DNA of 17,000 nucleotides, taken from positions 1,814,961 to 1,831,960 of the forward strand of contig NZ_CM001976.1 in the NCBI RefSeq assembly GCF_000406145.1, in the 5' to 3' direction. This document shows, one piece after another, positions 3,539 to 17,000 of the stretch. Position 1 is the stretch's first letter, and the number at the start of each line of letters is the position of its first letter. This DNA comes from Dickeya dadantii NCPPB 898. Its GTDB lineage: Bacteria > Pseudomonadota > Gammaproteobacteria > Enterobacterales > Enterobacteriaceae. Under the pieces are notes generated by a model. It had not been told where the DNA came from. It searched no databases and was given only the letters and a program-made list of their open reading frames with translations. Both the position numbers and the translations under genes were made by a program.

Positions 3539-3549
3539 CTGCCAGCTAG

Positions 3550-3578: not shown

Positions 3579-3754
3579 GCCCTCTGTCCGTTGTCCGGGT
3601 TAGCGCGGAAATTTTTTGGAACCGGACTATTGAGTATTTACATACTTCCCCCCGTTAAGCGTGCGACCTGTTACTTATCGGGGGCTTTTTTCGACACAGT
3701 AATAACGACAAGGAGCCGATTGTACGGCATGCCGTTCCGCTGCAGGTAACGAAG

Positions 3755-4479
3755 TCATATACCTGTCTGGCGGTAGCGTGACTCGAGTTTGTCGAGAAAA
3801 GTGAATAATGCTCTGTTCATTTCGCTGTAGTCGTGGCTCCGTAATTCTTCCGGTGTCTGAACGAATCGATATTCTGCGGCCCGACGTAAATCCCTGTCGG
3901 AATGCGCGATCAGCAATTCGACAAGGGACGGTGTAAGTTCCATATGGCACTGAAACCCGTAGACCAGCTCAGAATAAGCAACTATCTGTCGTGGGCAACC
4001 TTCGCTGTAGGCGACGATCTCCGCCGCGGGCGTAAGTCCCGGCATGTCGTTATGCCAGTGCCCGACATCGAGCTTATTACCGAAGTGAGAAAACAGCGGG
4101 TTCCGTTCGCTTTCTGCGGTCATAAAAACTGGAAACTTGCCGATCTCTTTTTCCGGGCTGTGCGCGAAGCGTGCGCCCAGGGCTTCCCCGATCAGCTGGG
4201 CACCAAGGCAGACGCCGATGACGGCTTTCCCCAGATGTACTACAGAGGCAATAAGTGCCTGTTCAGCTCTTGAGTCAAAATGTGCACATTCATCAGGCGT
4301 GACGGACGGATCCTGCGGCCCCCCATGACTACCAGCAGATCGATATTCCGTGCATCTTCAGGAAGTTTCTGACCCGCATAAACGCGAGAGAAGGTTACCT
4401 CATGGCCACGAATCATGGCCCAGGTTTCAAACACGCCGGGTGCTTCAAAGTGTTCATGCACAATAAAATGTACTCGCAT
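3755..4479 (-). pseudogene. class-I (GMP-synthase-like) glutamine amidotransferase, single 1-nt frameshift
   Basis: ORFs 4240..4479(-) and 3755..4123(-) belong to one gene. The N-terminal frame reads ...NIDLLVVMGG, then shifts. My translation of the other frame from about 4316 gives QDPSVTPDECAHFDSRAEQALIASVVHLGKAVIGVCLGAQLIGEALGARFAHSPEKEIGKFPVFMTAESERNPLF..., which includes the catalytic G-x-C-x-G-x-Q motif (GVCLGAQL) and runs directly into the 122-aa ORF. One nucleotide is missing in the tract ATGGGGGGCC (plus-strand C6 run 4319-4324). The restored length would be 242 codons. Confidence 0.85.
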
Positions 4480-4569
4480 AGGCTTATATCCTTCAGAATC
4501 TTGATAAGTAATTAAGTCAGGCGCATATCACCCCCTGCGAAATACCGGTCGGGTAACGCCAGTCGGGAC

Positions 4570-5364
4570 ATGATAGATGTGAGGTTTGATTTTGAAATGT
4601 CAGTAAGCATCGATAAAACGCCAAGGCACGATGACTCAACAGGCTGGTCGGCGACCGCTATTTCCTACCGGCGTGGGGAAGAAGATCCCCCTCATTATCA
4701 CCTGGAAGGGCAACTTTTATACGCTAGCAGCGGCGTTCTGCTGGTTGAGGCCGCGGGCAGGCGATGGGTTATTCCCCCTCAACGGGCGCTCTGGCTGCCG
4801 CCGTTGATGGAACACTCATACAGACTTCTGTCGCGTACGGAGCTACGTGCAGTTTACTTCAGCGGTAGCCTGATTTCTGAGTGCGCACATTTCGCAAAGA
4901 ATGACCGGGTACATGTGATCGACGTGGTTCCGCTGGTAAAGGAATTAATAGCTGGCCTGTTTATAAATGATTACCACACGCTGACGAAGCGAAAAATGGC
5001 GCTTTTACTTCTGGAAATTATCGGTGAGGCACCATCCGTACCCGCAGAACTACCGATGCCGCAGGATGACCGATTATTCCGTGCTATAGGAGAGCTGATG
5101 TCCAGCCATCGCTGGGAAACCTCGTTAACCGATATGGCTGACATAGCAAACATGTCGGAAAGGTCTTTCTCCCGCCTGTTTTCACGTGATACGGGGTTCA
5201 GCTTCCGGACATGGAAGCAGCGCGCAAGAATATACGCATCACTGGATCTTCTTTCTGAAAACGTACCTGTAAAACAGATTGCCTGGCAGCTTGGTTTTTC
5301 ATCACCGGCCGCATTTTCCGCTGCGTTTCGTGCAGTTATGGGCCTGACTCCCGGTGAGTTTTGA
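4570..5364 (+). CDS. AraC family transcriptional regulator (cupin-like N-terminal sensor + HTH)
   Basis: The C-terminus LTDMADIANMSERSFSRLFSRDTGFSFRTWKQRARIYASLDLLSENVPVKQIAWQLGFSSPAAFSAAFRAVMGLTPGEF is a typical AraC double HTH. It is divergent from the amidotransferase. An alternative start is the ATG at 4597 (MSVSIDK). Confidence 0.9.
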   Translation: MIDVRFDFEMSVSIDKTPRHDDSTGWSATAISYRRGEEDPPHYHLEGQLLYASSGVLLVEAAGRRWVIPPQRALWLPPLMEHSYRLLSRTELRAVYFSGSLISECAHFAKNDRVHVIDVVPLVKELIAGLFINDYHTLTKRKMALLLLEIIGEAPSVPAELPMPQDDRLFRAIGELMSSHRWETSLTDMADIANMSERSFSRLFSRDTGFSFRTWKQRARIYASLDLLSENVPVKQIAWQLGFSSPAAFSAAFRAVMGLTPGEF

Positions 5365-5495
5365 CGGAGGTTCAGTTGGGGGGACGGTGACAAATCGGGT
5401 ATTGACGCTATCCGGCACAGTGTCGATGCTGACGCCGCGACTATCAGGTGTTAAACGAAAAGAGACGGAACACACCGCGACTGAAAACGTAGGCG

Positions 5496-5518
5496 GCCCG
5501 GCTTTTCAGTCGCCGGGC
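5496..5518 (-). terminator. possible terminator hairpin downstream of cynS
   Basis: GCCCGGC (5496-5502), 9-nt loop, GCCGGGC (5512-5518). On the minus strand a short TTTT follows only about 9 nt after the stem, so it is weak as an intrinsic terminator. Confidence 0.35.
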
Positions 5519-5533
5519 TGAATTCTGAGAGGA

Positions 5534-6004
5534 TCAGAAAGGTTTGGTCGGCAGGTACTTGCCGTCCAGGGTGATCACCGCACGATGGCCACCATCCGGA
5601 TCATCAACTTTCTTGATATCCAGTTTGAAGTTAATGGCGCTGATAATGCCGTCGCCAAATTTCTCATGAACCAGAGCCTTAAGAGTAGGCCCGTAAACTG
5701 ACATCATCTCGTAGAAACGGTAGATTGTCGGATCGGTCGGGATGCCATCGGTAAAGCTGCCGCGGACGGGTACTGACTGCAACAGTTTAACGTCATCAGC
5801 ATTCAGATCGAGCTTCTTGCCGACAACGACTGCTGCGTCGGCAGGCAACGGATGCTGACCAAGCAGGGCTGCAGTAACGAAGGCTTCTGACAAACCTGTG
5901 CCGTCAACGATTTCGGAGAAGGAGAGTTCCTTGCGTGCCTTAGCCAGAATAATGGTTTCGGTGAGTGCCTGACGTGCGGCCTGAGTGACTTGAATCTGGA
6001 TCAT
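5534..6004 (-). CDS. cynS: cyanase (cyanate hydratase)
   Basis: 156 aa, collinear with E. coli CynS as I remember it, for example ...[22 protein letters not shown]... and the C-terminal [44 protein letters not shown]. Confidence 0.97.
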
Positions 6005-6031
6005 GGTCTTTTCTCCTGGTAAGTAAGGGGT

Positions 6032-6382
6032 TCAGGCAACATGCCTGGCTTGCGAGGAAACGGCGTTAACTTCTGGATTTTCAGCAAGGGACACGAAGGC
6101 GCGGGTTGTGCCATCAAAAGTATCAATGCAACCACTCCCAATGTCATAGAGCCAGCCGTGCAGAGTTACCCGGCCTTCTTCAAGCGCCAGGCGAACGGAT
6201 GGGTGAGTCTGGATGTTAGCCAACTGAGCGATGACGTTTTCGCGCACCATAGCCGCGACTTTGGTTGGCTGATCCGGATGAGGTCGGGATTCGTTCACGA
6301 CTCTGGCCGAGTCAGCATATAGCAGCCAGTTGGCAACGGCGGGCATATGATCCAGACACTTGCAGGTGGCGATGGCCGTCAT
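6032..6382 (-). pseudogene. cynT: beta-class carbonic anhydrase CynT, 5'-truncated (C-terminal ~116 of ~219 residues)
   Basis: [35 protein letters not shown]...[33 protein letters not shown] matches the E. coli CynT segment that follows ...CGHSNCGA. The upstream part, with the Cys/His/Cys zinc ligands, the promoter and cynR, is absent. Homology stops at about 6383, where trbF-like sequence begins. Confidence 0.9.
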
Positions 6383-6385
6383 TGA

Positions 6386-6633
6386 ACGAGTCCGTCACGG
6401 TGCAGATTGCCAGTGTGGTGCGCTCCAGCGATCGATCGTTTGAAGTGCGCTGGAGCGAACAACACTTTGCCCAAGGCACTCCGTCGGAGACCGAACGCTG
6501 GACTGCCATGCTGACCGTTGTGCAGCACACGCCGCGTACCGAGCAGCAGTTACGGCTGAATCCGTTGGGCGTCTATATCAACGGCCTGTCGTGGAGCCGG
6601 GAACTGGCGATGCCGGAAGGCGGTCAGCCATGA
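6386..6633 (+). pseudogene. trbF: 3' fragment of conjugal transfer gene trbF (VirB8-like), last ~82 codons
   Basis: [28 protein letters not shown]...ERWTAMLTVVQHTPRTEQQLRLNPLGVYINGLSWSREL resembles the conserved TrbF C-terminus (..V.V.SVVR.SD.SFQVRW.E.......RWTAILTV......... .NPLGLYV....WSREL). The first ~40 codons of ORF 6265..6633 are antisense cynT sequence, not trbF. Confidence 0.75.
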
Positions 6634-6795
6634 GAACGTGGTGGTATTACGGTCCTGTCTGTTACCTGATACTGGCACTGATCGGGTGTCGTGGTATGGG
6701 AAACCGGCCACCGGTTGTCGATCTGGACGAGCCGGCTCCGACAGCCTCGGTTCCGATGCCTCCGGCCTCCATAGTGGTGGGGAAGGGGGAGAACG
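6630..6795 (+). pseudogene. trbG: 5' fragment of trbG (VirB9-like): signal/lipobox N-terminus only
   Basis: The ATG at 6630 overlaps the trbF stop (ATGA), as in trbF-trbG-trbI operons. MRTWWYYGPVCYLILALIGC has a lipobox-like LIGC, followed by a Pro-rich NRPPVVDLDEPAP...VPMPP. The frame then runs into trbI-derived sequence in another frame. Confidence 0.45.
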
Positions 6796-7347
6796 GAGCG
6801 CCTTCGTTCCGACCTGCCGGGGCCGGTGATCGCCACCGTCACCGAACCGGTCTACGACACGGCGACCGGGCATTATCTGCTGATCCCGCAAGGCTCGCGC
6901 TTACTGGGTAAATACAATAGCCAGGTCAGCTATGGGCAAAGCCGGGTTCAGGTGGTCTGGAACCGCATTATCCTGCCGGATACGTCGTCGCTGACGCTGG
7001 ATAATCTGGCCGGTGCCGACCCGGCCGGTTACGTCGGGCTGGAAGATCAGGTGGACTGGCATTGGGATCGTGTGATTGCCGGCGCGGCAATGACCACACT
7101 ACTGGGGGTGGGTGCTGAACTGGCTGCCCCGGAGAACCGACAGCATGGCGATCGCATTATTCTTGCCGGACGTGACAGTTTGCAGGATTCGGTCAGTCAG
7201 GCGGGACAAGAACTTACCCGGCGTAACCTCGATATTCAGCCGACACTGACCGAACGGCCAGGCCTGCCGGTTCGTATCATCGTCAACCGGGATTTGGTGT
7301 TAAGGCCGTATCAACCGCTGTTTTTTAATCAGGGGAGTGCGAACTGA
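6796..7347 (+). pseudogene. trbI: 3' portion of trbI (VirB10-like), about 180 C-terminal codons, no start
   Basis: The frame of ORF 6826..7347 is open from 6775. (L)RSDLPGPVIATVTEPVYDTATGHYLLIPQGSRLLGKYNSQVSYGQSRVQVVWNRIILPD...GADPAGYVGLEDQVDWHW...IQPTLTERPGLPVRIIVNRDLVL is the conserved TrbI/VirB10 C-terminal domain. Confidence 0.85.
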
Positions 7348-7360
7348 AGGGGGAATGGAC
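7102..7360 (+). repeat. left copy of direct repeat (trbI 3' end + 13 nt past the stop)
   Basis: 7117-7360 aligns gap-free with 15858-16101 (offset 8741). I count 14 mismatches in 244 nt. Weaker similarity extends to about 7102 versus 15844. Confidence 0.95.
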
Positions 7361-7458
7361 GGTGGGGAAAGAGAGGCCCGATACTGGGGAGGCAATTCGG
7401 AATATTACTCATTCCCTGTATTCAGTGCCGACGTAGAGTAGAGTTTTCGGCCTCTCTC

Positions 7459-7606
7459 ATCGTAAAAAAAGAAGTCATCCGGCAGAGAAAGACGCGTTAT
7501 ACCGAAGAGCAAATTGTGTTTGCCCTGAAGCTGGCCGAAACCGGTACGCGGGTGGAGGAAGTCTGCAGAAAGATGGGGGGTTTCTGAAGCCACATTTTAC
7601 AACTCC
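7459..7606 (+). mobile_element. fragment of an IS3-family transposase orfA (HTH_Tnp_1 type), frameshifted and 3'-truncated
   Basis: My translation from 7459 gives IVKKEVIRQRKTRYTEEQIVFALKLAETGTRVEEVCRKMG, then (after one extra G in the G6 run 7575-7580) VSEATFYN. This matches the ..R(F/Y)TEEQI...LK.AE.G..V.E.CRK.G(I/V)SE.TFY.WK.K pattern of IS3-family OrfA proteins. No orfB and no clear terminal inverted repeat are present. Confidence 0.6.
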
Positions 7607-7618
7607 AGGAGTCCATAC

Positions 7619-10600
7619 ATGCGATACGACACCATCCCTGCACAAGCGATACGCCATGACAGCTCCCGGATGGATGGAGAGCAATGGCCACTCAGCTCTC
7701 CTCAGCAGGTCATATGGTTGGAGCAAATACTTCACCCAGACTCCAGTCACTATAATCTGGGCCTGCTCTATCGTATTGAGGGCAGGCTTGATCAGGCACT
7801 GTTCGTCCAGGCGGTAGAAATTTCTGTGGAGCGCCACGATGCGCTGCGCCTGCAACTTAAAGAGATCAATGAGCCCATTCAGGTACTCTGTAACAGCGCG
7901 CCTATCCCGACTCGTATCCACGACCTGTCTGGTTGCACAGACCCGGAAGCTGAGCTGGATAAACACGTCAACGCCCTGGTTAGGCAGGCGTTTGACTTAA
8001 CAGGGCAACTCTGGCGTTCTGACTTGCTGCGGATTAGCGAGTCGTGCTGGTATTGGCATTGTTGCTGTCATCATTTGATTCTGGATGGTCGTAATATCAT
8101 CCTGATTATGAGAGAGGTTGCGGATACGTATACCCGCTTGATCAATAAAGTGGGTATGGCGGAACGAGCGCCATCCTACCTCGATTTTATTACAGAGGAT
8201 CTCGCCTATTTCCATTCAGCGGGCTATAGCCAGGACCGGGATTTCTGGTTGGAGCGTTATGCAACGCTGCCCCCAATACTCATTCCTGCAAATAGTACTC
8301 ACATGAGTCATGAGGTGTCCGAGTCACCGCTACGTTGGCAGCTTGAGGCACCGCTATTAAAAACCATCGAGGCAATGCTTAATGAACACCGCCTATCGCT
8401 GTTGCACTTTATGTATGCGTTGTTGGCATGCTACTTCACGCGAACGACGGGTGAGCGGGACATCGTCATTGGTATTCCGGTGCATAACCGTCGTAACGCC
8501 AGGCAAAAAAATACGATAGGGATGTTCGCATCCGTCATTCCTGTGAGGATTTGCATAGCGGATCAGGATACATTCCTGGATGTGATGCATAAATGTGCAA
8601 GCGAACTGCGAAAGTGTCATAAACATCAACGCTTTCCTATATCGGAAATCAATCGTCACACTAGAGTCCAGCAAAAGACTGGACGTTCTCAGCTATTTGA
8701 TATTTTGCTATCGCTGGAGTTGTTCGAAACGAATGCGTCAATGGAGTACTGTAGTATTAGCCTGGTCGGGGTGCATCGCGGCACTTCCAATCCGCTTGCC
8801 ATCAGTATTCAACAATACAAGTACTCCCAAGATGATGACAATACGCCTGTTACCATTGAGTTCAGTTGTGCACCAGGCCATTTGAGCAAGATGGAGGTCG
8901 AGGCGCTACAGCGACGGCTGAGCGTGTTATTAGGGGCAGCGCTTCGTGGTCCAGATACGCTGATTAACCACTTATCGATGTTATCTGACGCCGAGCGTCG
9001 GCAATTACTGGCCGACTTCAATGCGACGCAGGCGGCGTTCCCGCAAGAGACGCTGCTCCACCAGCTGTTCGAAGGGCAGGTCGGGCAGACGCCGGACGCC
9101 ACCGCGGTGGTCTTTGACGGGCAGTCGCTGAGCTATGCTGAACTGAATGCCCGCGCCAATCGCGTTGCACACAGCCTGATTAGCCTGGGCGTGCAGCCGG
9201 ACGAACGGGTGGCAGTCTGTGCAGAGCGCAGCCTGGAGATGGTGGTGGGTATCCTGGCGATCCTCAAGGCCGGTGGCGCGTATGTGCCGCTGGATCCGGC
9301 ATACCCTTCAGCGCGTCTGGCGTATATGCTCGCGGATGCACAGCCGGTGGCGCTTCTCACGCAAAGGGCGTTGCAGGCAAACCTGGGTTCAGACCTGCCG
9401 ACACTGCTGCTCGATGCCGACATGGGCAGCACAGACAGCGACAACCCGGTTGTTCCGGGCCTGAGTGCCAGGCACCTTGCCTATGTGATCTACACCTCCG
9501 GATCGACCGGGCAGCCCAAAGGGGTGGCGATGCAGGCTGCGGCACTCCTGAACTTATTATATTGGCATCGACAAGAACCGTCATCGATCACGATGGCAGA
9601 CAAAACATTACAGTTTGCAGCACTGGGGTTTGACGTTGCCTTTCAGGAAATATTCGCAACATTAAGCCAGGGGGGATCGCTGGTCTTGATCCGTGAAGAG
9701 ACGCGACGGAACCCTTTGGCAATACTGCATTTAATTGAGAAAGAACACATCACACGGATATTTTTGCCTTACATTGCATTACAGCAACTGGCAGAAACCA
9801 CTAATCTGCAGACCATTAATTTAAAATGTTTAAAACACATTGTTACTGCCGGTGAGCAGTTACACATTACCCCCGCTATACGCAAGCTATTACAAGCTAA
9901 CCCGCATTGCCAATTACATAACCATTATGGCCCGAGCGAAACACATGTCGTTACGAGCTATATTCTGAATTCACCCAGTGAGTTAAACATCAGTTTTCCG
10001 CCCATTGGCCGACCGATCGCCAACACCCGGATCTACATCCTCGACCCGCATGGCCAGCCGGTTCCGGTGGGTGTCAGGGGGGAAATCCACATCGCCGGCG
10101 CCGGCGTTGCCCGGGGCTATCTGAACCGCCCGGAACTCACCGCTGCGCGCTTCCTGGCGGATCCGTTCGCAGGCCAGCCCGGTGCGCGGATGTACCGAAC
10201 CGGGGATCTGGGACGCTGGCTGCCGGATGGCACGATCGAATACCTGGGCCGTAATGACTGCCAGGTCAAAATCCGGGGCTTCCGTATCGAACCCGGAGAG
10301 ATCGAAGCGTGTCTGGTACAGTGCGCCGGCGTGCGCGAAGCGGTGGTGATTGCACGCGAAGACAGCCCGGGTGACAGGCGTCTGGTGGCCTATCTGGTCG
10401 CGGAAGCCGGTATCCTTCCCGAACCCGCCGGGCTGCGTCAGGCGCTGGCGCAGCAACTGGCGGACTATATGCTGCCGTCGGCGTATGTGCGGCTGGATGC
10501 GCTGCCGCTGACGCCCAACGGCAAGCTCGATCGCCACGCCTTGCCCGCGCCGGATCAGGGCGCGGTGGTCAGCCGGGGCTATGAGGCGCCGGCAGGCGAG

Positions 10601-10717
10601 ATTGAAACGGCGCTGGCGCAAATCTGGCAGGATGTGCTGGGGGTGGCGCGCGTCGGACGGCACGATCACTTCTTCGAACTCGGCGGGCATTCGCTGCTGA
10701 CTGTCACAGCTGATTGA
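7619..10717 (+). CDS. NRPS segment 1: C1-A1-(N-terminal part of T1)
   Basis: 1032-aa ORF ending ...FFELGGHSLLTVTAD*, only 7 codons after the phosphopantetheinyl Ser codon (10691-10693). Confidence 0.85.
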   Translation: MRYDTIPAQAIRHDSSRMDGEQWPLSSPQQVIWLEQILHPDSSHYNLGLLYRIEGRLDQALFVQAVEISVERHDALRLQLKEINEPIQVLCNSAPIPTRIHDLSGCTDPEAELDKHVNALVRQAFDLTGQLWRSDLLRISESCWYWHCCCHHLILDGRNIILIMREVADTYTRLINKVGMAERAPSYLDFITEDLAYFHSAGYSQDRDFWLERYATLPPILIPANSTHMSHEVSESPLRWQLEAPLLKTIEAMLNEHRLSLLHFMYALLACYFTRTTGERDIVIGIPVHNRRNARQKNTIGMFASVIPVRICIADQDTFLDVMHKCASELRKCHKHQRFPISEINRHTRVQQKTGRSQLFDILLSLELFETNASMEYCSISLVGVHRGTSNPLAISIQQYKYSQDDDNTPVTIEFSCAPGHLSKMEVEALQRRLSVLLGAALRGPDTLINHLSMLSDAERRQLLADFNATQAAFPQETLLHQLFEGQVGQTPDATAVVFDGQSLSYAELNARANRVAHSLISLGVQPDERVAVCAERSLEMVVGILAILKAGGAYVPLDPAYPSARLAYMLADAQPVALLTQRALQANLGSDLPTLLLDADMGSTDSDNPVVPGLSARHLAYVIYTSGSTGQPKGVAMQAAALLNLLYWHRQEPSSITMADKTLQFAALGFDVAFQEIFATLSQGGSLVLIREETRRNPLAILHLIEKEHITRIFLPYIALQQLAETTNLQTINLKCLKHIVTAGEQLHITPAIRKLLQANPHCQLHNHYGPSETHVVTSYILNSPSELNISFPPIGRPIANTRIYILDPHGQPVPVGVRGEIHIAGAGVARGYLNRPELTAARFLADPFAGQPGARMYRTGDLGRWLPDGTIEYLGRNDCQVKIRGFRIEPGEIEACLVQCAGVREAVVIAREDSPGDRRLVAYLVAEAGILPEPAGLRQALAQQLADYMLPSAYVRLDALPLTPNGKLDRHALPAPDQGAVVSRGYEAPAGEIETALAQIWQDVLGVARVGRHDHFFELGGHSLLTVTAD
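7685..8980 (+). other. C1: N-terminal condensation domain (no upstream carrier domain in cis)
   Basis: WPLSSPQQVIWLEQILHPDSSHYNLG (C1-like motif). Active site HHLILDG at 8069-8089. IGMFASVIPVRI and HQRFPISEI (C5/C6-like motifs). Confidence 0.8.
8985..9526 (+). repeat. intragenic repeat A, copy 1 (C-A linker to A3 motif of module 1)
   Basis: Aligns gap-free with 12235-12776 (offset 3250). I count 8 mismatches in 542 nt. Confidence 0.95.
9030..10540 (+). other. A1: adenylation domain, extracted code D-V-Q-F-V-A-H-V-V-K (proline-like)
   Basis: Motifs LSYAELNARAN, LKAGGAYVPLDP, YTSGSTGQPKGV, FDVAFQE, NHYGPSE, GEIHIAGAGVARGYLNRPELT, YRTGDLGR, GRNDCQVKIRGFRIEPGEIE, NGKLDR. Code positions were placed by hand alignment to GrsA-PheA (235,236,239,278,299,301,322,330,331,517). 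Confidence 0.8.
10004..10692 (+). repeat. intragenic repeat B, copy 1 (IGRPIANT... through A6-A10 to the GGHS of T1)
   Basis: Aligns with 13221-13910 (offset 3217, becoming 3218 after the 1-nt indel). I count 23 substitutions plus 1 indel in about 689 nt. Confidence 0.95.
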
Positions 10718-10800
10718 ACGGTTGCGCCGTCTGGAGATGAAACTGGATGTGCGTAGTGTCTTTAGTACGCCTACCCTCAGTGATATGGCACGGGCGATTG
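10580..10800 (+). other. T1: peptidyl carrier domain, disrupted by a +1 frameshift near 10706
   Basis: YEAPAGEIETALAQIWQDVLGVARVGRHDHFFELGGHSLLTV / QLIERLRRLEMKLDVRSVFSTPTLSDMARAI. Skipping one nucleotide at about 10706 restores a canonical PCP. Confidence 0.85.
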
Positions 10801-13800
10801 GCCAGCCGCAAGGGAATACGGGCGCCTTTGTGGCGCCACCGAACCTGATTCCCGATGGGTGTACGGCAATCACCCCAGAAATGCTGCCGTTAGTCGCGCT
10901 CTCCCAGGCGGAGATCGAGACTATCGTTGCGGCCATTCCGGGGGGCGCGGCCAACGTTCAGGACATTTATCCGCTCGCGCCACTGCAGGAGGGGATATTG
11001 TTTCATCACCTGCTACAGCAACAGGGTGATAACTATTTGTTGCGCAGCATCCTGGCCTTTGATTCACGCTCGCGTCTGGATGCCTTCCTCAGTGCCTTGC
11101 AGCAGGTGATCGATCGTCACGATATTCTGCGCAGCAGTCTGTGTTGGCACCACCTGCCCCAGCCGGTGCAGGTGGTATGGCGCCAGGCCAGCTTGCCTGT
11201 GGCCGAACTTCCGCTTGTGAGCGAAGAAGACGCACTGACGCAACTGCAGGCGTACTCGGATCCGCGTACACGCCGCCTTGATCTGGGCCGCGCGCCGCTG
11301 TTCTTTAGCGATATCGCCTACGACGCCAGGCAGGACGAATGGTTGCTGGCGCTGGGATTCCACCACATTGTGACTGATCATATGAGCCTGGAATTGATCG
11401 TCGCGGAGATTGGCGAGATTCAGCAGGGGAGGGGAGCGGGCTTGGCACCCTGCTTCCCCTACCGCCACTTTGTTGCACAAAGCCGCAGTGTGCCAGCGGC
11501 AGTCCATGAGGAGTACTTCCGCAGTCAGTTGCAGGAGGTTGAAGAGCCCACTGCACCCTTTGGCATTCTTGAGCCGACACAGGATAACGCGGAGATTGCC
11601 GAAGCCCGGCTGATGCTGGATAGCGACCTGGCCATGGCCATTCGTCAGCAGGCACGACAACTGGGTATCAGCCCTGGCGTGTTGTTCCATGTTGCCTGGG
11701 CGCAGGTACTGGCGCAAACCAGCGGATGTGACGATGTGGTCTTTGGTACCGTGCTACTCGGCCGTTTGCAAGGGGGGGCCAATGCTGGACAGACGCTGGG
11801 CATGTTTATCAATACGTTGCCGCTGCGTCTGACGCTGGCACAGCAAGGTGTGCTGGAGGTGGTGCATGGCGCCTACCGTCAGTTGATGGTGCTGCTTGAA
11901 CATGAGCAGGCACCATTGTCGCTGGCACAACGCTGTAGCGGTGTTGCGCCGTTACTGCCACTATTTGGTAGCCTGCTTAATTACCGCCATAGTCGTGCAG
12001 CAGAGACTCTACAGGCATGGGAGGGGATGCGAATGCAGTATTTTGAGGAGCGCACCCACTATCCGTTTGCCCTGTTTGTCGACGATCTGGGCCAGGACTT
12101 TAGTCTGACGGCACAGTGTGTATCGGCTATCGACCCGGCACGGCTCAATGCGTATATGCTGACGGCGATGACAGGACTGCTGCAGGCCTTGGCATCGGAT
12201 CCGCGACAGCAAATTCTGAGCATACCGATTCTGCCTGACGCCGAGCGTCGGCACTTACTGGCCGGCTTCAATGCGACGCAGGCGGCGTTCCCGCAAGAGA
12301 CGCTGCTCCACCAACTGTTCGAAGGGCAGGTCGGGCAGACGCCGGACGCCACCGCGGTGGTCTTTGACGGGCAGTCGCTGAGCTATGCTGAACTGAATGC
12401 CCGCGCCAATCGCGTTGCACACAGCCTGATTAGCCTGGGCGTGCAGCCGGACGAACGGGTGGCAGTCTGTGCAGAGCGCAGCCTGGAGATGGTGGTGGGT
12501 ATCCTGGCGATCCTCAAGGCCGGTGGCGCGTATGTGCCGCTGGATCCGGCATACCCTTCGGCGCGTCTGGCGTATATGCTCGCGGATGCACAGCCGGTGG
12601 CGCTTCTCACGCAAAGGGCGTTGCAGGCAAACCTGGGTTCAGGCCTGCCGACACTGCTGCTCGATGCCGACATGGGCAGCACAGACAGCGACAACCCGGT
12701 TGTTCCGGGCCTGAGTGCCAGGCACCTTGCCTATGTGATCTACACCTCCGGATCGACCGGACAGCCGAAGGGGGTGATGGTTGAGCATGCTTCGGTCGTT
12801 AATTTCTTGTCCTCAATGACAACGCAGCCCGGCTTGAGTGCTAATGACAAGTTGTTGGCATTGACGACCTTAAGCTTCGATATTGCTGGACTAGAGCTCT
12901 ATTTGCCGTTGATCAGGGGGGCTCAATGTCTTCTTGTTTCGCATGAAACGAGCAAGCAGGCTGATAAGTTGTGTGGGATGATCGAGCGCCTCAGGCCTAG
13001 TGTGATACAAGCCACTCCATCCACCTGGTCCATGCTTTTGCAGCAGGACTGGATTCCAGGAGCAGGACTTAAAGTGTTGTGTGGTGGTGAAGCAATGAGC
13101 AGCACGCTCAGGCAACAGTTAATAGCGAGTGCTGCAGAAGTCTGGAACCTTTATGGACCGACTGAAACCACAATATGGTCGCTCACATCACGGGTTCTTT
13201 CTATGGAGGGAACCTTGTCAATTGGCCGTCCGATCGCCAACACCCGGATCTACATCCTCGACCCGCATGGTCAGCCGGTTCCGGTGGGTGTCAGGGGGGA
13301 AATCCACATCGCCGGCGCCGGCGTTGCCCGGGGCTATCTGAACCGCCCGGAACTCACCGCTGCGCGTTTCCTGGCGGATCCGTTCGCAGGCCAGCCCGGT
13401 GCGCGGATGTACCGAACCGGGGACCTGGGACGCTGGCTGCCGGATGGCACGATCGAATACCTGGGTCGTAATGACTGCCAGGTCAAAATCCGGGGCTTCC
13501 GTATCGAACCCGGAGAGATCGAAGCGTGTCTGGTGCAGTGCGACGGCGTGCGCGAAGCGGTGGTGATTGCACGCGAAGACAGCCCGGGTGACAGGCGTCT
13601 GGTGGCCTACCTGGTCGCGGAAGCCGGTATTCCTCCCCGAACCCGCCGGGCTGCGTCAGGCACTGGCGCAGCAGCTGGCGGACTATATGCTGCCGTCGGC
13701 CTTTGTGCGGCTGGATGCGCTGCCGCTGACGCCCAACGGCAAGCTCGATCGCAAGGCCTTACCGGCCCCGGATCAGAGCGCGGTGGTCAGCCGGGGCTAT

Positions 13801-13802
13801 GA
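10722..13802 (+). CDS. NRPS segment 2: (C-terminal part of T1)-C2-A2 up to the A9 region; the last ~55 codons are out-of-frame read-through
   Basis: This frame is open from 10701 and encodes (S)QLIERLRRLEMKLDVRSVFSTPTLSDMARAI, the rest of T1. The TTG at 10722 has no Shine-Dalgarno sequence. The tail IPPRTRRAASGTGAAAGG... is the shifted reading of the A2 C-terminus. Confidence 0.8.
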   Translation: MRRLEMKLDVRSVFSTPTLSDMARAIGQPQGNTGAFVAPPNLIPDGCTAITPEMLPLVALSQAEIETIVAAIPGGAANVQDIYPLAPLQEGILFHHLLQQQGDNYLLRSILAFDSRSRLDAFLSALQQVIDRHDILRSSLCWHHLPQPVQVVWRQASLPVAELPLVSEEDALTQLQAYSDPRTRRLDLGRAPLFFSDIAYDARQDEWLLALGFHHIVTDHMSLELIVAEIGEIQQGRGAGLAPCFPYRHFVAQSRSVPAAVHEEYFRSQLQEVEEPTAPFGILEPTQDNAEIAEARLMLDSDLAMAIRQQARQLGISPGVLFHVAWAQVLAQTSGCDDVVFGTVLLGRLQGGANAGQTLGMFINTLPLRLTLAQQGVLEVVHGAYRQLMVLLEHEQAPLSLAQRCSGVAPLLPLFGSLLNYRHSRAAETLQAWEGMRMQYFEERTHYPFALFVDDLGQDFSLTAQCVSAIDPARLNAYMLTAMTGLLQALASDPRQQILSIPILPDAERRHLLAGFNATQAAFPQETLLHQLFEGQVGQTPDATAVVFDGQSLSYAELNARANRVAHSLISLGVQPDERVAVCAERSLEMVVGILAILKAGGAYVPLDPAYPSARLAYMLADAQPVALLTQRALQANLGSGLPTLLLDADMGSTDSDNPVVPGLSARHLAYVIYTSGSTGQPKGVMVEHASVVNFLSSMTTQPGLSANDKLLALTTLSFDIAGLELYLPLIRGAQCLLVSHETSKQADKLCGMIERLRPSVIQATPSTWSMLLQQDWIPGAGLKVLCGGEAMSSTLRQQLIASAAEVWNLYGPTETTIWSLTSRVLSMEGTLSIGRPIANTRIYILDPHGQPVPVGVRGEIHIAGAGVARGYLNRPELTAARFLADPFAGQPGARMYRTGDLGRWLPDGTIEYLGRNDCQVKIRGFRIEPGEIEACLVQCDGVREAVVIAREDSPGDRRLVAYLVAEAGIPPRTRRAASGTGAAAGGLYAAVGLCAAGCAAADAQRQARSQGLTGPGSERGGQPGL
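10962..12230 (+). other. C2: condensation domain with N-terminal HHLxxxxGD motif and variant active site HHIVTDH
   Basis: DIYPLAPLQEGILFHHLLQQQGDNYL (HHLLQQQGD at 11004-11030). HHIVTDH at 11361-11381. LGMFINTLPLRL. Confidence 0.8.
12235..12776 (+). repeat. intragenic repeat A, copy 2 (module 2)
   Basis: See copy 1. Both copies start at CTGACGCCGAGCGTCGG (..DAERR..) and end at ..AAGGGGTG (..PKGV). Confidence 0.95.
12280..13755 (+). other. A2: adenylation domain, extracted code D-I-L-Q-L-G-L-I-W-K (glycine), with a +1 frameshift at about 13630-13638
   Basis: Motifs as in A1, except for the core: SFDIAGLE, LCGGEAM, NLYGPTETTIW. K517 equivalent lies in QVKIRG. Confidence 0.8.
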
Positions 13803-13910
13803 GGCGCCGGCAGGCGAGATTGAAACGGCGCTGGCGCAAATCTGGCAGGATGTGCTGGGTGTGGCGCGTGTTGGACGGCACGATCACTTCTTCGAGCTCG
13901 GCGGGCATTC
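13221..13910 (+). repeat. intragenic repeat B, copy 2 (module 2)
   Basis: See copy 1. Identity ends within the Ser codon of GGHS (TCG versus TCT) in both modules. Confidence 0.95.
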
Positions 13911-15711
13911 TCTACTTGCCGTGCGCCTATTGAACCGTATGCGAGAGGAGGGCCTCGATCTTCCATTAGCCTCTTTATTCACCACCCCAATACTGTGTGA
14001 TTTGGCCATGGTTATCGGTCCGCCTTCTTTTACCCAGTCAAGTTCTCCCTTTGATGCTAATCCGGTACCATTAAGACCAGAAGGCAGTTTACGGCCTTTA
14101 TTCTTGGTACACGAGACCTCTGGTGATCCACTGGTTTATTCGCCGCTGGCAGCCTTACTTCCATCTGAATTACCCGTCTACGTATTACAGGCTATAGGTA
14201 TTCAGAATGTAGCTACTGTACCCGAATCGATTGAGGCACTTGCAGCCTGCCATATCCAGGCCATTCGTCGAGTCCAGCCTCAAGGACCTTACCGCTTTGC
14301 TGGATGGTCAATGGGAGGTGTCGTCGCCTACGAGATAACTGTACAACTGCTTCAGAGTGGTGAGCGTGTCGAGTTCCTCGGTATGATCGATTCCTGTAAC
14401 CACAAAGGACTGGATACAAACCATCTTCAATCGTGTGATGCTCAACAGGTCTCTCGTGAAATGTTCATTAAAGCGTTGGTTGAAAACTTTGATGTCAGCG
14501 TCGAGCAAGTGACAGGGTTGTGTCAGATCGCGGATCTCGATCAATTGGTGGATCGTTGTATTGAGCTTTCCTATCTCCCTGCAGATATTTCACGTGAGGA
14601 TGTTTTAGTGCGTATCAATACCATTGAAACCCTGACACGCCTGTTACAGCGTTATACACCATCAGCATCACAGGTTCCTATCTACCTTTATACAGCGGAA
14701 GAGGCATTGAGTGACGATGTTTGGAGGGGTTGGCGTGATCTTGTGGATAGTCATTCTCAGCTTCGCTCTATAGGAGGAACCCATGGATCAATCATGCGCC
14801 AGCCCTTACTAAGTCAATTGGCTGATGCCATAAGAGAAGATTTGCTGCCGAAGCATGGCTATAATCCGTGCGTTATCATTCAGCGTGGCTCACCATCTCG
14901 CCTTCCACTGTTTTGTATCCCAGGTGCCGGGGCTAGTGCTTTCAGCCTGCTGGAACTGGCTTTGTCGTTGCCAGCGTCGTTGCCGGTCCATGCCCTGGAG
15001 GCGCCAGGTCTGGCTGATGCGCGGATAGCACCGTATAACAGTGTTGAAAGCTATGCGCGAGCTTATACGCAAAAGATCCGTCAGACGCAGGCTCACGGAC
15101 CTTATCATCTCCTCGGCCATTCCTTTGGGGGCTGGATCGCCTTTGAAATCGCTCTTCAACTGCAAGAACATGGGGAAAGCGTTGCTAATTTGATGCTAAT
15201 TGATAGCGAAGCCCCTGACCCTCAGGGGAGGCCGTCCAAGTCTGTCGACCGTGTTGAGACGCTGATGAAGTTGATTGAGATTTATAATATGACGCTCGAT
15301 CAACCGCTTGGGCTTGTTCGAGAGGATTTTAAGGGCCGAGATGCAGATGCGCAGCTGCAGTTTTTGTTTGCGGTGCTGAAAGGAGCCGGGCTTTTCCCTG
15401 AAAATGCCCAAATCACACTGTTGCAAGGTATCGTCCAAGTGATGCAGGCTAATTTGAATAGCAGTTACACCCCGAGAGCGCGCTTTCATGGTCAGGTTCA
15501 TCTGGTCAGTGCTATGGACAGTGACAGGAGGGAGCGACAAGGCATGGAGTCGGGCTGGAGGAAGCATGTCGAAGAACTGGGGACGCTGGTGGTACCGGGT
15601 AACCATATGACGATGCTATTGAGGCCTAATATAGAGTCGCTGGCAGGTTATTTGTGGCTGCGGCTGGACACAGCCAGTAACTCGGGGATCGTAGGGAAAA
15701 GTTATAAATAG
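13567..15711 (+). CDS. NRPS segment 3: A2 C-terminus (A9-A10)-T2-TE1-TE2; meaningful coding begins at about 13639
   Basis: From [40 protein letters not shown] onward it matches the module-1 sequence. The first ~24 codons ([22 protein letters not shown]) are the wrong frame of A2. Confidence 0.8.
   Translation: [714 protein letters not shown]
13798..14010 (+). other. T2: peptidyl carrier domain
   Basis: [73 protein letters not shown]. Ser codon at 13909-13911. Confidence 0.85.
14089..14850 (+). other. TE1: thioesterase domain
   Basis: [23 protein letters not shown] (Ser codon 14308-14310). LGMIDS (Asp candidate). GGTHGSIM (His candidate). Confidence 0.8.
14902..15660 (+). other. TE2: second thioesterase domain
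   Basis: [26 protein letters not shown] (Ser codon 15121-15123). LMLIDSEAP (Asp candidate). VPGNHMTML (His candidate). Confidence 0.8.
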
Positions 15712-15843
15712 GCTATTGCCCGATTCAGGTGACCTTAACAGGCGAGCCATAATTTTGTCCTTTTATAGTCCAGTCGCTGTCAGACTTGTGTCTTTAACTG
15801 GCTGTATTTAAAGACGCTGTCCTGCTGCTGTCCCATCAAATAT

Positions 15844-16101
15844 GCTGGGGGGGAGTTGAACTCGCTGCCCCGGGGAACCGGCAACATGGCGATCGTATTA
15901 TCCTTGCCGGACGTGACAGCTTGCAGGATTCGGTCAGTCAGACGGGACAAGAGCTCACCCGGCGTAACCTCGATATTCAGCCGACACTGACCGAACGGCC
16001 AGGTCTGCCGGTTCGTATCATCGTCAATCGGGATTTGGTGTTAAGGCCGTATCAGCCGCTGTTTTTTAATCAGGGGAGTGCGAACTGAATGGGGAATGGA
16101 C
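15844..16101 (+). repeat. right copy of direct repeat (trbI 3' end)
   Basis: 15858-16101 matches 7117-7360 with 14 mismatches in 244 nt and no gaps. Confidence 0.95.
15858..16088 (+). pseudogene. trbI: second, shorter trbI 3' fragment (last ~76 codons + stop)
   Basis: Translates ELAAPGNRQHGDRIILAGRDSLQDSVSQTGQELTRRNLDIQPTLTERPGLPVRIIVNRDLVLRPYQPLFFNQGSAN*, nearly identical to the end of the 6796-7347 fragment. It has no start codon and no upstream trbI sequence. Confidence 0.85.
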
Positions 16102-16141: not shown

Positions 16142-16453
16142 TTATCTGGAACGGTAGCGTGCCGACACATCCCGGGCGGTATGCAATAGTCGCAAGATAT
16201 GTACGTCGCCGCTGTGGCGTTTCAGCGCATAGACCAAAATAAACGGGAGCCGGGTCAGCACCAGTTTACGTCGTTCTCCCGACTTCCCTATGCTGACGCC
16301 CGCTTCCGGGGTGGTTTCCAGCAGCGCCACTGCGGCGGCGAATTTGTCATCGGTGGCATTGGCGACCTCCAGTCCCGCGTTCTGGTACAGGTAACGGTAA
16401 ATGTCTTCGCGGTCAGCGATAGCTTGCCTTTCCCAACGAACGGTTGCCGTCAC
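16142..16453 (-). CDS. type II toxin, ParE/RelE superfamily
   Basis: 103 aa: (M)TATVRWERQAIADREDIYRYL...LPFILVYALKRHSGDVHILRLLHTARD, typical ParE/RelE size and C-terminal I.R.LH..RD pattern. The GTG start overlaps the upstream stop (GTGA). Confidence 0.75.
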   Translation of the reverse strand: MTATVRWERQAIADREDIYRYLYQNAGLEVANATDDKFAAAVALLETTPEAGVSIGKSGERRKLVLTRLPFILVYALKRHSGDVHILRLLHTARDVSARYRSR

Positions 16454-16734
16454 AGTTCCCCCCGGGCGGCTTGCGCTTTCAGCGCCGCCATACGTTGACT
16501 GGCCTCGTCATTGCTGATGAACTGGGCCTCACCGGCATCGTAACGGGCGAAGGCTTCCTGAATTTTTGCTTCCAGCCATTCATCACCGGTATGGCGCTGA
16601 TACTGTCGCTCTTCCTCGGCCAGTTCTTCCGCACGCTGGCGCATCAGTTCGGTAAGACTGACCTGCTGACGCTCAGCAGCCTTCATGGCCAGACGTTTGG
16701 TTTCCTCGTCAATTCTGAAGTGTATTGTCCCCAT
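16450..16734 (-). CDS. type II antitoxin, ribbon-helix-helix (ParD/DinJ-like)
   Basis: 94 aa. The N-terminal TIHFRIDEETKRLAMKAAERQQVSLTELMRQ looks like an RHH strand-helix-helix. It lies upstream of the toxin and is translationally coupled to it. Confidence 0.65.
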   Translation of the reverse strand: MGTIHFRIDEETKRLAMKAAERQQVSLTELMRQRAEELAEEERQYQRHTGDEWLEAKIQEAFARYDAGEAQFISNDEASQRMAALKAQAARGEL

Positions 16735-17000
16735 AACCGCCTCCGATAGATTGTATGTGTTGTCACTTGTGGTGTCATTTTATCCAATCTCGTCAGTTTT
16801 TGCTGCTTTTTTGAAGGGAGAACCGCCTTTACTGGTGCCGTAAAAAGCTTGTCGAATTCTAAGGATCACAGTGGCGGTTTTGTTGTAGAGGCTAAATAGC
16901 TGCGGCTAATACCGCTACACCTACCGTTTACTGACATGTGGCATGTTGCGTAAGGGCAACACATCCGAGGCCTTATGTAGAACAGCCAGACAGAGAAAAC

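What the first reader, a model, noticed from the sequence alone, without database searches (positions are those of the whole stretch)
7102..16101. NRPS cassette bracketed by 94%-identical direct repeats of the trbI 3' end
7117-7360 and 15858-16101 align without gaps (14 mismatches in 244 nt), and both include the trbI stop and 13 nt beyond it. Weaker similarity continues a few tens of nt on each side. Between the repeats lie only a ~100-nt spacer, the IS3 orfA fragment, the NRPS and a 132-nt 3' flank. The right copy is a bare ~76-codon trbI tail joined directly to the NRPS 3' flank. The ~6% divergence argues against a fresh target-site-type duplication. It favours two related but distinct conjugative elements, or a cassette that carried its own trbI tail, joined by recombination. 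The repeats could also mediate RecA-dependent loss of the 8.7-kb unit.
Basis: partly seen in the sequence, partly recalled or inferred. Interest (0 to 1): 0.7.

Follow-up and report, generated by a model that had tools for sequence, protein, structure and literature searches.

The report
NRPS gene between two ICE remnants
The repeated trbI gene ends around this Dickeya dadantii peptide-synthetase gene are real; they most likely come from two related, decayed conjugative elements joined at a copied tmRNA-gene attachment site, which makes this an informative but ordinary scar of island accretion.

Summary
The repeat is real. 7118-7360 and 15859-16101 match at 229 of 243 nt (255 nt at 93% with a look-alike edge). 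The same two junctions occur in at least six D. dadantii assemblies, including complete genomes, so it is not a misassembly. The predicted empty site exists: strains L11 and WS52 have the same trbF'-trbG'-'trbI remnant running straight into parE/antitoxin, and intact ICEs have trbI-parE adjacent.

Two new results sharpen the reading. First, 11 of the 13 single-base coding differences between the copies are synonymous (pN/pS 0.06). The copies therefore derive from working trbI genes of different ICE lineages, not from a decaying local duplication. Second, the right copy starts at an 18-nt copy of the 3' end of the tmRNA gene ssrA (15844-15861). This core is fused to trbI inside a 10-of-11-nt look-alike. 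Two other strains carry the same fusion with the native ssrA flank in place of the NRPS.

The best model is two related Tn4371-family ICE remnants, the right one truncated by recombination between an ssrA att site and trbI. The claimed weak similarity beyond the repeats is at chance level. In this window the NRPS is a two-module pseudogene. Interest is moderate to low.

The parts
6032..6382 (-). cynT' (carbonic anhydrase), 5'-truncated. This is the left edge of a window-specific 3.3-kb deletion.
   Evidence: It matches only Pfam Pro_CA profile positions 78-155 of 156. cynT is intact (219 aa) in CP023467.1 and other strains. The deletion junction at 6373-6384 has TGGCCGT microhomology.
6385..6633 (+). 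trbF' (VirB8-like), C-terminal fragment of the left ICE remnant
   Evidence: Pfam VirB8 1.8e-19. NCBIfam TrbF profile positions 154-227 of 228. 91-93% identical to trbF of intact Dickeya ICEs.
6630..6802 (+). trbG', N-terminal fragment, fused to 'trbI by an internal deletion of about 1.4 kb
   Evidence: Alignments to the intact ICE L001 break at window 6802/6803 (L001 12323 then 10902). The same junction is present in L004, L006 and L009.
6803..7347 (+). 'trbI, C-terminal about 181 codons (ORF from GTG 6826, 173 aa)
   Evidence: Pfam TrbI 9.4e-50. NCBIfam TrbI profile positions 269-428 of 433. 95% identical to the intact trbI of D. dadantii S3-1.
7118..7360 (+). Left repeat copy: trbI codons about 337-412, the stop, and 13 nt. 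7102-7117 is the trbI sequence that resembles the ssrA core.
7361..7411 (.). 51-nt spacer of unknown origin. The boundary with the repeat is sharp.
   Evidence: It is identical in CP023467.1 and, as part of the 98.9%-identical 7361-7640 segment, in L005. It has no significant similarity to the native trbI-parE intergenic region.
7412..7604 (+). Fragment of an IS3-family (ISYpe1-like) element: left end plus the 5' part of orfA. It is cut 15 nt before the NRPS start codon.
   Evidence: blastn gives about 80% identity to ISYpe1-family transposase regions over query positions 52-244.
7619..15711 (+). NRPS pseudogene with domain order C-A-T-C-A-T-TE-TE. It is split into three ORFs by 1-nt insertions at 10708 and 13634.
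   Evidence: Pfam domains. Positions of the differences from CP023467.1. Removing the two bases gives one 2,696-aa ORF. The window lacks 15,919 nt, about five modules, that are present in CP023467.1.
15712..15843 (.). NRPS 3' flank
   Evidence: The tested segment 15690-15860, which also spans the NRPS stop and the ssrA core, is 100% identical in DSM 18020, L062 and L063 and 98-99% in CP110362.1 and CP077422.1.
15844..15861 (-). Copy of the ssrA (tmRNA gene) 3' region: T-loop, T-stem 3' strand and the start of the acceptor strand. This is an att-type core. Its last bases (GAAC) overlap the start of the trbI tail.
   Evidence: The 17-mer GCTGGGGGGAGTTGAAC is identical to the genuine ssrA end in L069 (tmRNA called at 11847-12227, minus strand). 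It is also identical in L055, L057, L058 and L064. The window, DSM 18020, L062 and L063 have one extra G.
15859..16101 (+). Right repeat copy: bare trbI tail (about 76 codons, stop at 16086-16088) plus 13 nt, in native continuity with parE
   Evidence: It is contiguous with parE/antitoxin exactly as in intact ICEs L001, L003, L056, L059 and L060. It has 14 mismatches to the left copy.
16142..16453 (-). parE-family toxin gene
   Evidence: Pfam ParE_toxin 4.1e-12, 46.9 bits against a cut-off of 23. The protein is identical to that of the intact ICE of S3-1.
16450..16734 (-). RelB/ParD-like antitoxin gene, overlapping parE by 4 nt
   Evidence: Hits to DUF6290, RelB and DinJ are weak and below the curated cut-offs. 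The exact protein is found on 21 contigs, always next to parE in the ten places shown.
16864..17000 (.). End of the sequence shared with the other NRPS-bearing, tail-only and empty-site loci (16857-16867). The window's last about 135 nt match none of the loci, apart from about 30 nt (to 16895) at 78-82% in three intact ICEs.

Best explanation
The window is a Dickeya dadantii chromosomal region holding the wreck of two related Tn4371-family (ICEDda1-like, trb-type) conjugative elements in the same orientation.

The left remnant keeps trbF'-trbG'-'trbI. Downstream of trbI it carries a spacer, an IS3 fragment and a Xenorhabdus-like NRPS. That block ends in a copy of the ssrA (tmRNA gene) attachment core.

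The right remnant keeps only the last 76 codons of trbI, followed by its native parE/antitoxin pair and cargo. Its truncation point is a crossover between the ssrA core and a chance look-alike inside trbI (GGGAGTTGAAC in ssrA, GGGAGCTGAAC in trbI). The crossover lies at the T-loop position, where integrases that target tRNA and tmRNA genes are known to cross over. That event removed everything between the NRPS flank and mid-trbI of the right element.

The 'direct repeats' are therefore the 3' ends of two paralogous trbI genes, not a duplication made by the insertion.

What is shown: the anatomy, the ssrA identity of the junction, conservation of both junctions across strains, the existence of empty sites, and the purifying-selection signature of the differences.

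What is inferred: that the two elements once lay in tandem, that an integrase rather than simple microhomology made the junction, and that the repeats now serve as RecA substrates able to delete or circularise the 8.7-kb unit (24.7 kb in DSM 18020).
For: 1. Intact relatives have traG-trbBCDEJLFGI followed directly by parE/antitoxin. The window's right tail is colinear with that arrangement at 96%.
2. The left remnant, with the identical trbG'/'trbI deletion junction, is shared by NRPS-bearing and NRPS-free strains.
3. ArdC and CcdAB genes lie further left in CP023467.1. This fits a larger decayed conjugative element on the left.
4. Differences between the two tails are 11 synonymous and 2 non-synonymous, pN/pS 0.06, P = 1.2e-5.
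5. Positions 15844-15861 equal the genuine ssrA 3' region of Dickeya.
6. In L057 and L064 the same ssrA-core/trbI-tail fusion is preceded by 535 nt colinear with the native MatE-ssrA intergenic region, up to exactly ...GAGTTGAAC. The core is thus a true att fragment that has been used in two different contexts.
7. Both insert junctions are identical wherever they were sampled: the right junction in the window, DSM 18020, CP110362.1, CP077422.1, L062 and L063, and the left junction in the window, DSM 18020 and L005.
8. The tRNA-Asn att core of ICEDda1/ICEDso1 (PMC9373382, Table S13) lies about 4 kb right of the antitoxin in CP110362.1 and CP077422.1. This marks the end of the right remnant.
9. 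Islands in tRNA and tmRNA genes are delimited by a regenerated target and a displaced fragment (PMC4383910). Tandem and secondary-site integration is documented for SGI1 (PMC2297512).
Against: - No second ssrA core, no integrase and no tRNA-Asn core are present in the window.
- The far-left end of the presumed left element was never seen.
- The NRPS-side copy of the ssrA core stops at ...CAGC and would not regenerate a functional tmRNA 3' end. It is therefore not a canonical island-borne att.
- The literature places an island (ICEDda2) at bamE, at 0.87-0.92 Mb in DSM 18020. In L069 bamE lies next to smpB-ssrA. The genuine ssrA locus is therefore probably about 1 Mb from this locus, which requires an ectopic core.
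- An 11-mer with at most one mismatch is expected about once per ICE by chance (my estimate), so plain microhomology-mediated deletion cannot be excluded.
- Recombination has scrambled the SNP patterns, so lineage assignment of each tail is not clean.
Confidence: 0.55

Rival explanations
1. A cassette with its own trbI tail. A circular molecule of the form tail(+13 nt)-spacer-IS'-NRPS-flank-ssrA core integrated by a single homologous (Campbell-type) crossover into the trbI tail of a resident single ICE remnant of the L11/WS52 type. It can leave the same way. The unit spreads among strains that carry related ICE remnants.
For: - Empty sites with the same remnant exist at the same locus.
- Both junctions are invariant while the right tail is mosaic, with a sharp identity drop at the flank/tail boundary. 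This is what recombination limited to the homologous tail would give.
- One gain explains the strain distribution as well as one loss does.
Against: - The circle must already contain the ssrA-core/trbI-tail fusion, so its origin still needs the two-element event of the main model.
- No circular or deletion junction has been observed.
- A 25-35-kb circle has no evident transfer route.
- 243 nt at 94% identity is a poor RecA substrate in mismatch-repair-proficient cells (general knowledge).
Confidence: 0.22
2. Site-specific integration of an ssrA-targeting NRPS island directly into the look-alike site in trbI. The island carried a replacement trbI 3' end, as e14 and phage 21 carry a replacement icd 3' end.
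For: - The right junction has exactly the form 'element arm + att core + target 3' part'.
- The left copy completes the trbI reading frame.
- Integrative elements that target genes of other mobile elements are known (PMC10111431).
Against: - No integrase lies between the repeats, and no core copy is at the left junction.
- The core is ssrA-like rather than trbI-specific.
- The left trbI was already a dead fragment in all strains seen, so there is nothing to 'repair'.
- No intact ICE with this insert was found.
Confidence: 0.1
3. A local duplication made during insertion (a long target duplication or replication slippage), followed by neutral divergence of two dead copies.
For: Direct repeats bracket the inserted DNA. 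Pseudogene divergence can be fast.
Against: - pN/pS is 0.06, with 11 of 13 single-base coding differences synonymous.
- pS of 0.19 far exceeds the 1-2% divergence of the chromosomal flank among strains.
- The junction is an ssrA att fragment.
- At 243 nt the repeat is far longer than any transposase target duplication (general knowledge).
Confidence: 0.04
4. The duplication is an assembly artefact.
For: The window's NRPS is shorter than in the closest complete genome. The missing 15.9 kb lies between near-identical modules, which is the typical pattern of repeat collapse.
Against: Both trbI copies and both junctions are present in the complete genome CP023467.1. The right-hand junction is also in CP110362.1, CP077422.1 and several independent drafts. 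Collapse of NRPS modules would not create the trbI repeats.
Confidence: 0.01

Closest known systems
ICEDda1 / ICEDso1 of Dickeya (assigned to the Tn4371 family; PMC9373382, PMC4028081)
   Same: Intact relatives fetched here have the same traG-trbBCDEJLFGI backbone with a toxin-antitoxin pair next to trbI. TrbI is 80-88% identical in amino acids to TrbI of Pseudomonas, Stenotrophomonas, Comamonas and Delftia elements. The tRNA-Asn att core of ICEDda1 is found at the end of the right remnant in two strains.
   Different: The window holds only fragments (trbF', trbG', 'trbI and a second trbI tail). It has no integrase, relaxase, traG or att core. This locus was not called an ICE in DSM 18020 by PMC9373382; that paper's ICEDda2 lies elsewhere.
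Tandem accretion and secondary-site recombination of islands at tRNA and tmRNA genes (Islander concept, PMC4383910; SGI1 tandem and secondary sites, PMC2297512; Dehalococcoides ssrA islands, PMC3146451)
   Same: A displaced fragment of the ssrA 3' end marks an island boundary. The same fragment is seen with two different neighbours: the native flank in L057 and L064, and the NRPS flank here.
   Different: Here the att fragment is fused to the coding sequence of a conjugation gene at a look-alike site. No partner core or integrase is present locally, and the locus is apparently not the genuine ssrA locus in DSM 18020.
e14 / phage 21 integration in icd, with an element-borne substitute 3' end (from memory, not checked here)
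   Same: Diverged direct repeats of a gene's 3' end bracket inserted DNA. The left copy completes the reading frame, and the differences are mostly synonymous.
   Different: There is no integrase in the insert. The target gene was already a fragment, and the crossover core is ssrA-like rather than trbI-specific.
Hybrid and deletion formation between tandem SXT/R391 ICE copies (from memory, not checked here)
   Same: Related ICEs occupying one locus recombine, producing hybrids and losing internal segments. Variable cargo sits at fixed backbone boundaries.
   Different: This is a different ICE family. Here both copies are dead remnants and the junction involves an att site of another target gene.
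Xenorhabdus/Photorhabdus NRPSs ending in tandem thioesterases
   Same: The T-TE-TE end is 53-58% identical in amino acids to Xenorhabdus proteins and 51% to a Pectobacterium brasiliense protein. The domain order is C-A-T...TE-TE.
   Different: No product is known for this NRPS. The module number varies among Dickeya strains (2, 7, and a single 11,234-aa ORF). The gene is frameshifted in the window.

Membership tests
Tn4371-family / ICEDda1-like ICE (functional element) | Complete MPF-T operon trbBCDEJLFGI with traG | tested here: not met
   The window has only trbF' (82 aa), trbG' (57 aa), 'trbI (181 codons) and a second 76-codon trbI tail. Complete operons occur in relatives L001, L056 and L059.
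Tn4371-family / ICEDda1-like ICE (functional element) | Tyrosine integrase and att repeats (the tRNA-Asn 3' end ccagtcagaggagcca for ICEDda1) | tested here: not met
   There is no match in the window with up to 3 mismatches, and no integrase ORF or domain was seen. The core is present in L055 and L058, about 4 kb beyond the antitoxin.
Tn4371-family / ICEDda1-like ICE (remnant, by descent) | Sequence colinearity with intact family members across trbF-trbG-trbI-parE | tested here: met
   Identity to the intact ICEs of S3-1, CP110362.1 and L059 is 90.5-96% over 6373-6802, 6803-7361 and from 15847/15851 rightward to 16816-16895.
Island delimited by tRNA/tmRNA att repeats | Displaced fragment of the target gene at an island end | tested here: met
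   Positions 15844-15861 equal the ssrA 3' region. In L057 and L064 it is continuous with the native ssrA-downstream flank.
Island delimited by tRNA/tmRNA att repeats | Second copy of the core (regenerated target) at the other end, and an integrase next to it | tested here: not met
   Only one core was found in the window and none in L009 or L065. There is no tmRNA or tRNA gene in the window or the Dickeya loci, except L069.
Transposition target-site duplication | Short, identical direct repeats abutting the element's terminal inverted repeats | tested here: not met
   The repeat is 243 nt at 94%. The IS fragment starts 51 nt from the left repeat and is absent at the right one.
Gene-3'-end-replacing integrative element (e14/icd type) | Element-borne copy that restores the target ORF, a displaced original 3' end, and an integrase in the element | tested here: inconclusive
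   The form is met: the left copy completes the ORF and the right copy is displaced. However, there is no integrase, and the target was already truncated upstream.
Modular NRPS (functional gene) | Uninterrupted ORF with C-A-T modules and a terminal TE | tested here: not met
   The domains C-A-T-C-A-T-TE-TE are present, but there are two +1 frameshifts at 10708 and 13634. The ORF is restored only after removing them.
Type II ParE/RelB-like toxin-antitoxin pair | Small adjacent or overlapping genes, with a toxin domain above the curated threshold | tested here: met
   ParE_toxin scores 46.9 bits against a cut-off of 23. The genes overlap by 4 nt. Antitoxin hits are only below the curated cut-offs. 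Differences among strains are mostly synonymous.

The most novel reading that the evidence does not exclude
The ssrA-type core marks a mobile NRPS island whose integrase can use a look-alike site inside trbI of Tn4371-family ICEs. The island would then insert into, disable, and later ride or recombine with conjugative elements. The trbI-tail repeats would let the unit excise as a circle and re-enter any genome that carries a related trbI. That would make it an island specialised on a conjugation gene rather than on a host gene.
Probability: 0.1. Interest if true: 0.6.

Novelty: new member of a known kind. Interest (0 to 1): 0.35.

Why it matters
It shows how a secondary-metabolite gene comes to sit inside the debris of conjugative elements. 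It also shows how an att fragment of one target gene (ssrA) can recombine with a chance look-alike in a conjugation gene and so reshape a locus. For Dickeya genomics it explains a presence/absence polymorphism of an uncharacterised, module-variable NRPS, and it flags the 243-nt repeats as the likely route of its loss. It does not reveal a new kind of system.

Tried and rejected
- DNA searches of the trb remnant against PLSDB plasmids and complete E. coli genomes found nothing useful.
- ARAGORN on the window and 14 Dickeya loci found no tRNA or tmRNA gene. The ssrA link emerged only from the island-free locus L069.
- I first read L057's upstream region as an IS3 remnant that might have mediated a deletion. 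It is in fact part of the native MatE-ssrA intergenic region, so I dropped that idea.
- I tried to use SNP patterns to tell whether the empty sites are chimeras of the left and right copies. The polymorphisms are mosaic across all classes of copy, so the test is uninformative.
- The tRNA-Asn att of ICEDda1 does not resemble the junction core.
- Promoter and terminator scans of both junction regions gave nothing above background.
- The TrbI fragment protein search returned mainly fragments from other genera and no Dickeya context.
- Look-ups of two truncated TrbI proteins from other taxa showed only that trbI-tail remnants are common in decayed ICEs.
- The AraC look-up found no record.
- A fuzzy-regex scan timed out and was replaced by a Hamming scan.
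- A possible second look-alike of the core at the left junction (GGGGGAATGGAC at 7349-7360) matches only 9 of 17 positions by eye. I did not pursue it.

Full report
**Observation.** The repeat is real. The repeat finder reports 7106-7360 vs 15847-16101, 255 nt ungapped at 93%. Both copies include the trbI stop and 13 further bases. The claimed weaker similarity beyond the repeats is not above chance: local alignment scores against shuffles give p = 0.17-0.45 downstream and 0.87 upstream.

**Anatomy of the window.** From left to right the window contains the following.
- Chromosomal-type genes: ABATE/CGNR, TetR, DUF1348, esterase, a broken GATase, AraC, cynS and a 5'-truncated cynT.
- A trb remnant: the trbF' C-terminus (6385-6633), the trbG' N-terminus (6630-6802), and the last 181 codons of trbI (6803-7347), fused to trbG' by an internal deletion.
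- A 51-nt spacer after the left repeat.
- An ISYpe1-like IS3 fragment at 7412-7604.
- An NRPS with domains C-A-T-C-A-T-TE-TE at 7619-15711.
- A 3' flank of about 130 nt.
- The bare trbI tail.
- Convergent parE and antitoxin genes.

**Origin and relatives.** Exact-protein look-ups place the window in Dickeya dadantii. Positions 138-6384 are 100% identical to CP023467.1. That record is strain DSM 18020 (PMC7348025). Four configurations were recovered.
1. *Intact ICEs.* These have traG-trbBCDEJLFGI followed directly by parE/antitoxin. They occur in D. dadantii S3-1 (CP076386.1), CP110362.1 and others. The right tail plus toxin-antitoxin pair is therefore the native ICE arrangement (96% identity).
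2. *The same two repeats with identical junctions around a longer NRPS.* In DSM 18020 the repeats are 24.7 kb apart. The right-hand junction is also present in CP110362.1, CP077422.1, SMHE01 and JBBBQP01. The left-hand junction is also present in JBBBQJ01. The duplication is therefore not a misassembly, and it arose once.
3. *The predicted empty site.* Strain L11 (GCA_000784725.1, listed as D. chrysanthemi in PMC8401272) and Dickeya sp. WS52 (SZVX01) have cynS-cynT-cynR-trbF'-trbG'-'trbI running straight into parE/antitoxin. They carry the identical trbG'/'trbI deletion junction and have no NRPS.
4. *A 'tail-only' form.* In L057 and L064 the trbI tail is cut at the same base as the right copy but is preceded by different DNA.

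**Test of the divergence argument.** Over the 75 shared codons the two copies differ by 11 synonymous and 2 non-synonymous changes. pS is 0.19 and pN/pS is 0.06, with P = 1.2e-5 against neutral expectation. The copies therefore carry sequence that diverged while encoding a working TrbI. They are alleles of different ICE lineages, not two dead copies drifting apart after a local duplication.

The percentage divergence is not a clock, however. Among NRPS-bearing strains, identity is 99.8-100% in the NRPS 3' end and flank, and drops to 94-95.5% exactly where the tail starts. The polymorphisms are mosaic among left copies, right copies, empty sites and intact ICEs. The right tail and the toxin-antitoxin genes are evidently overwritten repeatedly by recombination with incoming related ICEs.

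**The junction.** All right copies and the tail-only loci share GCTGGGGGG(G)AGTTGAAC, where trbI has CTGGGGGTGGGAGCTGAAC.
- L057's neighbour gene MatE is a core Dickeya gene.
- In an island-free D. dadantii locus (L069), MatE is followed by the tmRNA gene ssrA and then smpB, ratA, rnfH and bamE.
- The 3' end of that ssrA, on the minus strand, reads ...TTTTGGTGGAGCTGGGGGGAGTTGAAC|CCCCGTCC.
- The 17-mer GCTGGGGGGAGTTGAAC is identical in genuine ssrA, L057/L064, CP110362.1 and CP077422.1. The window, DSM 18020, L062 and L063 have one extra G.
- L057's upstream 535 nt is colinear with the native MatE-ssrA intergenic region up to exactly ...GAGTTGAAC. After that point L069 continues into ssrA and L057 continues into the trbI tail.

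The 5' boundary of the right copy is therefore a displaced ssrA att fragment. It is fused to trbI within a 10-of-11-nt look-alike (GGGAGTTGAAC in ssrA, GGGAGCTGAAC in trbI). From memory, in ssrA terms this is the edge of the T-loop, a known crossover position for tRNA- and tmRNA-targeting integrases (Williams 2002, not read here). The general principle, that a regenerated target and a displaced fragment mark island ends, is stated in PMC4383910. The same fused core has two different left neighbours: the native ssrA flank, or the NRPS flank. This points to recombination at the core itself.

**Model.** Two related ICEDda1-like elements, in the same orientation, once occupied this region.
- The left element decayed by several deletions. 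Downstream of its trbI it carries IS'-NRPS-flank, ending in an ssrA-type core.
- A recombination between that core and the look-alike in the right element's trbI removed the intervening DNA. What remains on the right is tail-parE-antitoxin-cargo.
- ArdC and CcdAB genes further left in DSM 18020 fit a larger dead element.
- The ICEDda1 tRNA-Asn att core (PMC9373382) lies about 4 kb right of the antitoxin in two strains and marks the right remnant's end.
- Whether an integrase or simple microhomology made the fusion is not shown.

The chromosomal flank separates an NRPS clade (window = DSM 18020, with L005 at 1.06%) from an empty clade (L11 and WS52), 1.9-2.1% apart. One loss by recombination between the tails explains the distribution, and so does one gain. 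The polarity is open.

**Weak points.**
- There is no second ssrA core, integrase or tRNA-Asn core in the window.
- The left end of the presumed left element was not reached.
- The NRPS-side core stops at ...CAGC and could not regenerate a tmRNA 3' end.
- The literature places an island at bamE, next to ssrA, at 0.87-0.92 Mb in DSM 18020. The core at this locus (about 1.93 Mb) is therefore probably ectopic.

**State of the cargo.** Relative to DSM 18020 the window differs as follows.
- It lacks 15,919 nt of the NRPS, giving two modules instead of seven. The breakpoint lies in a 552-nt stretch shared by the modules.
- It has single-base insertions at 10708 and 13634, neither of which simply lengthens a homopolymer run. 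Removing them restores one 2,696-aa ORF.
- It has a 3.3-kb deletion from cynT into trbF' at a TGGCCGT microhomology.

CP077422.1 encodes a single 11,234-aa NRPS. The closest relatives of the T-TE-TE end are Xenorhabdus, Photorhabdus and Pectobacterium proteins at 51-58% identity.

**Verdict.** The structure is a scar of island accretion and decay. It is a new example of a known kind, of moderate to low interest.

Noticed in passing
window 7619-15711; L009/L002 (CP023467.1); L058 (CP077422.1): The NRPS differs greatly in length between strains. The window has 2 modules (2,696 aa if repaired). DSM 18020 has about 8,000 aa in three ORFs (5,605 + 368 + 2,029 aa). CP077422.1 has one ORF of 11,234 aa. 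Modules share 300-550-nt blocks at 97-99% identity, so modules seem to be gained and lost by homologous recombination. Assembly collapse in the window's source cannot be excluded.
   Followed up: partly
window 10708 and 13634: Two single-base insertions relative to CP023467.1 break the NRPS into three ORFs. One is an A in GTCAC[A]GCTGA and the other is a T inside a C-run. Neither simply lengthens a homopolymer run, so they look like real mutations rather than typical sequencing errors.
   Followed up: yes
window 6373-6384: A window-specific 3.3-kb deletion relative to CP023467.1 removes the 5' part of cynT, cynR, an AHH-nuclease toxin gene with two neighbours, and part of trbF'. The junction lies in a TGGCCGT(c)ATTG microhomology. 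The 200 nt to its right (6393-6585) carry 7 substitutions relative to CP023467.1, whereas the next 2.4 kb carry none.
   Followed up: partly
window 9001-14000 (composition profile): The NRPS is compositionally mosaic. The shared adenylation-domain blocks are 63-67% G+C. The first C domain, the module-1-specific A-domain core (9501-10000, 46%) and the TE-TE region (48-51%) are much lower. This suggests sub-domain swaps from a high-G+C source.
   Followed up: no
window 16857-17000: NRPS-bearing, tail-only and empty-site loci stop matching the window at 16857-16867, about 125-130 nt beyond the antitoxin start. Three intact ICEs match weakly (78-82%) up to 16895. Beyond this boundary each strain has different DNA: IS3 plus MFS/AraC, SIR2/AAA defence-like genes, LysR/DMT, or H-NS. 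The window's last about 135 nt are otherwise unmatched. This looks like a cargo hot spot of the ICE family.
   Followed up: partly
window 3675-4480: The glutamine amidotransferase gene between the esterase and AraC genes is intact (241 aa) in L004, L005 and L006. In the window and in DSM 18020 it is split into short ORFs (122 and 79 aa), so it is a pseudogene in this lineage.
   Followed up: no
L055/L056 (CP110362.1): One genome carries both the NRPS-bearing remnant locus and, about 1 Mb away, an intact ICE of the same family encoding the identical antitoxin protein. Such an ICE is a ready donor for the gene conversion seen in the right trbI tail.
   Followed up: partly
L066 (metagenome contig) and L067 (Chromohalobacter CP000285.1): Truncated trbI C-terminal fragments (173 and 198 aa) next to DUF2274 or defence-like cargo also occur in unrelated taxa. 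In L066 the 173-aa ORF is the same length as the Dickeya one and is fused to a trbE fragment. Tails of trbI seem to be common survivors of ICE decay.
   Followed up: partly
L065 (CP023467.1 1892261-1912737): Left of the window's genes, DSM 18020 has ArdC, CcdA/CcdB, an Rhs fragment with a nuclease tip and its immunity gene. The 'chromosomal' cyn/AraC/esterase block may therefore itself be cargo of a decayed element.
   Followed up: no
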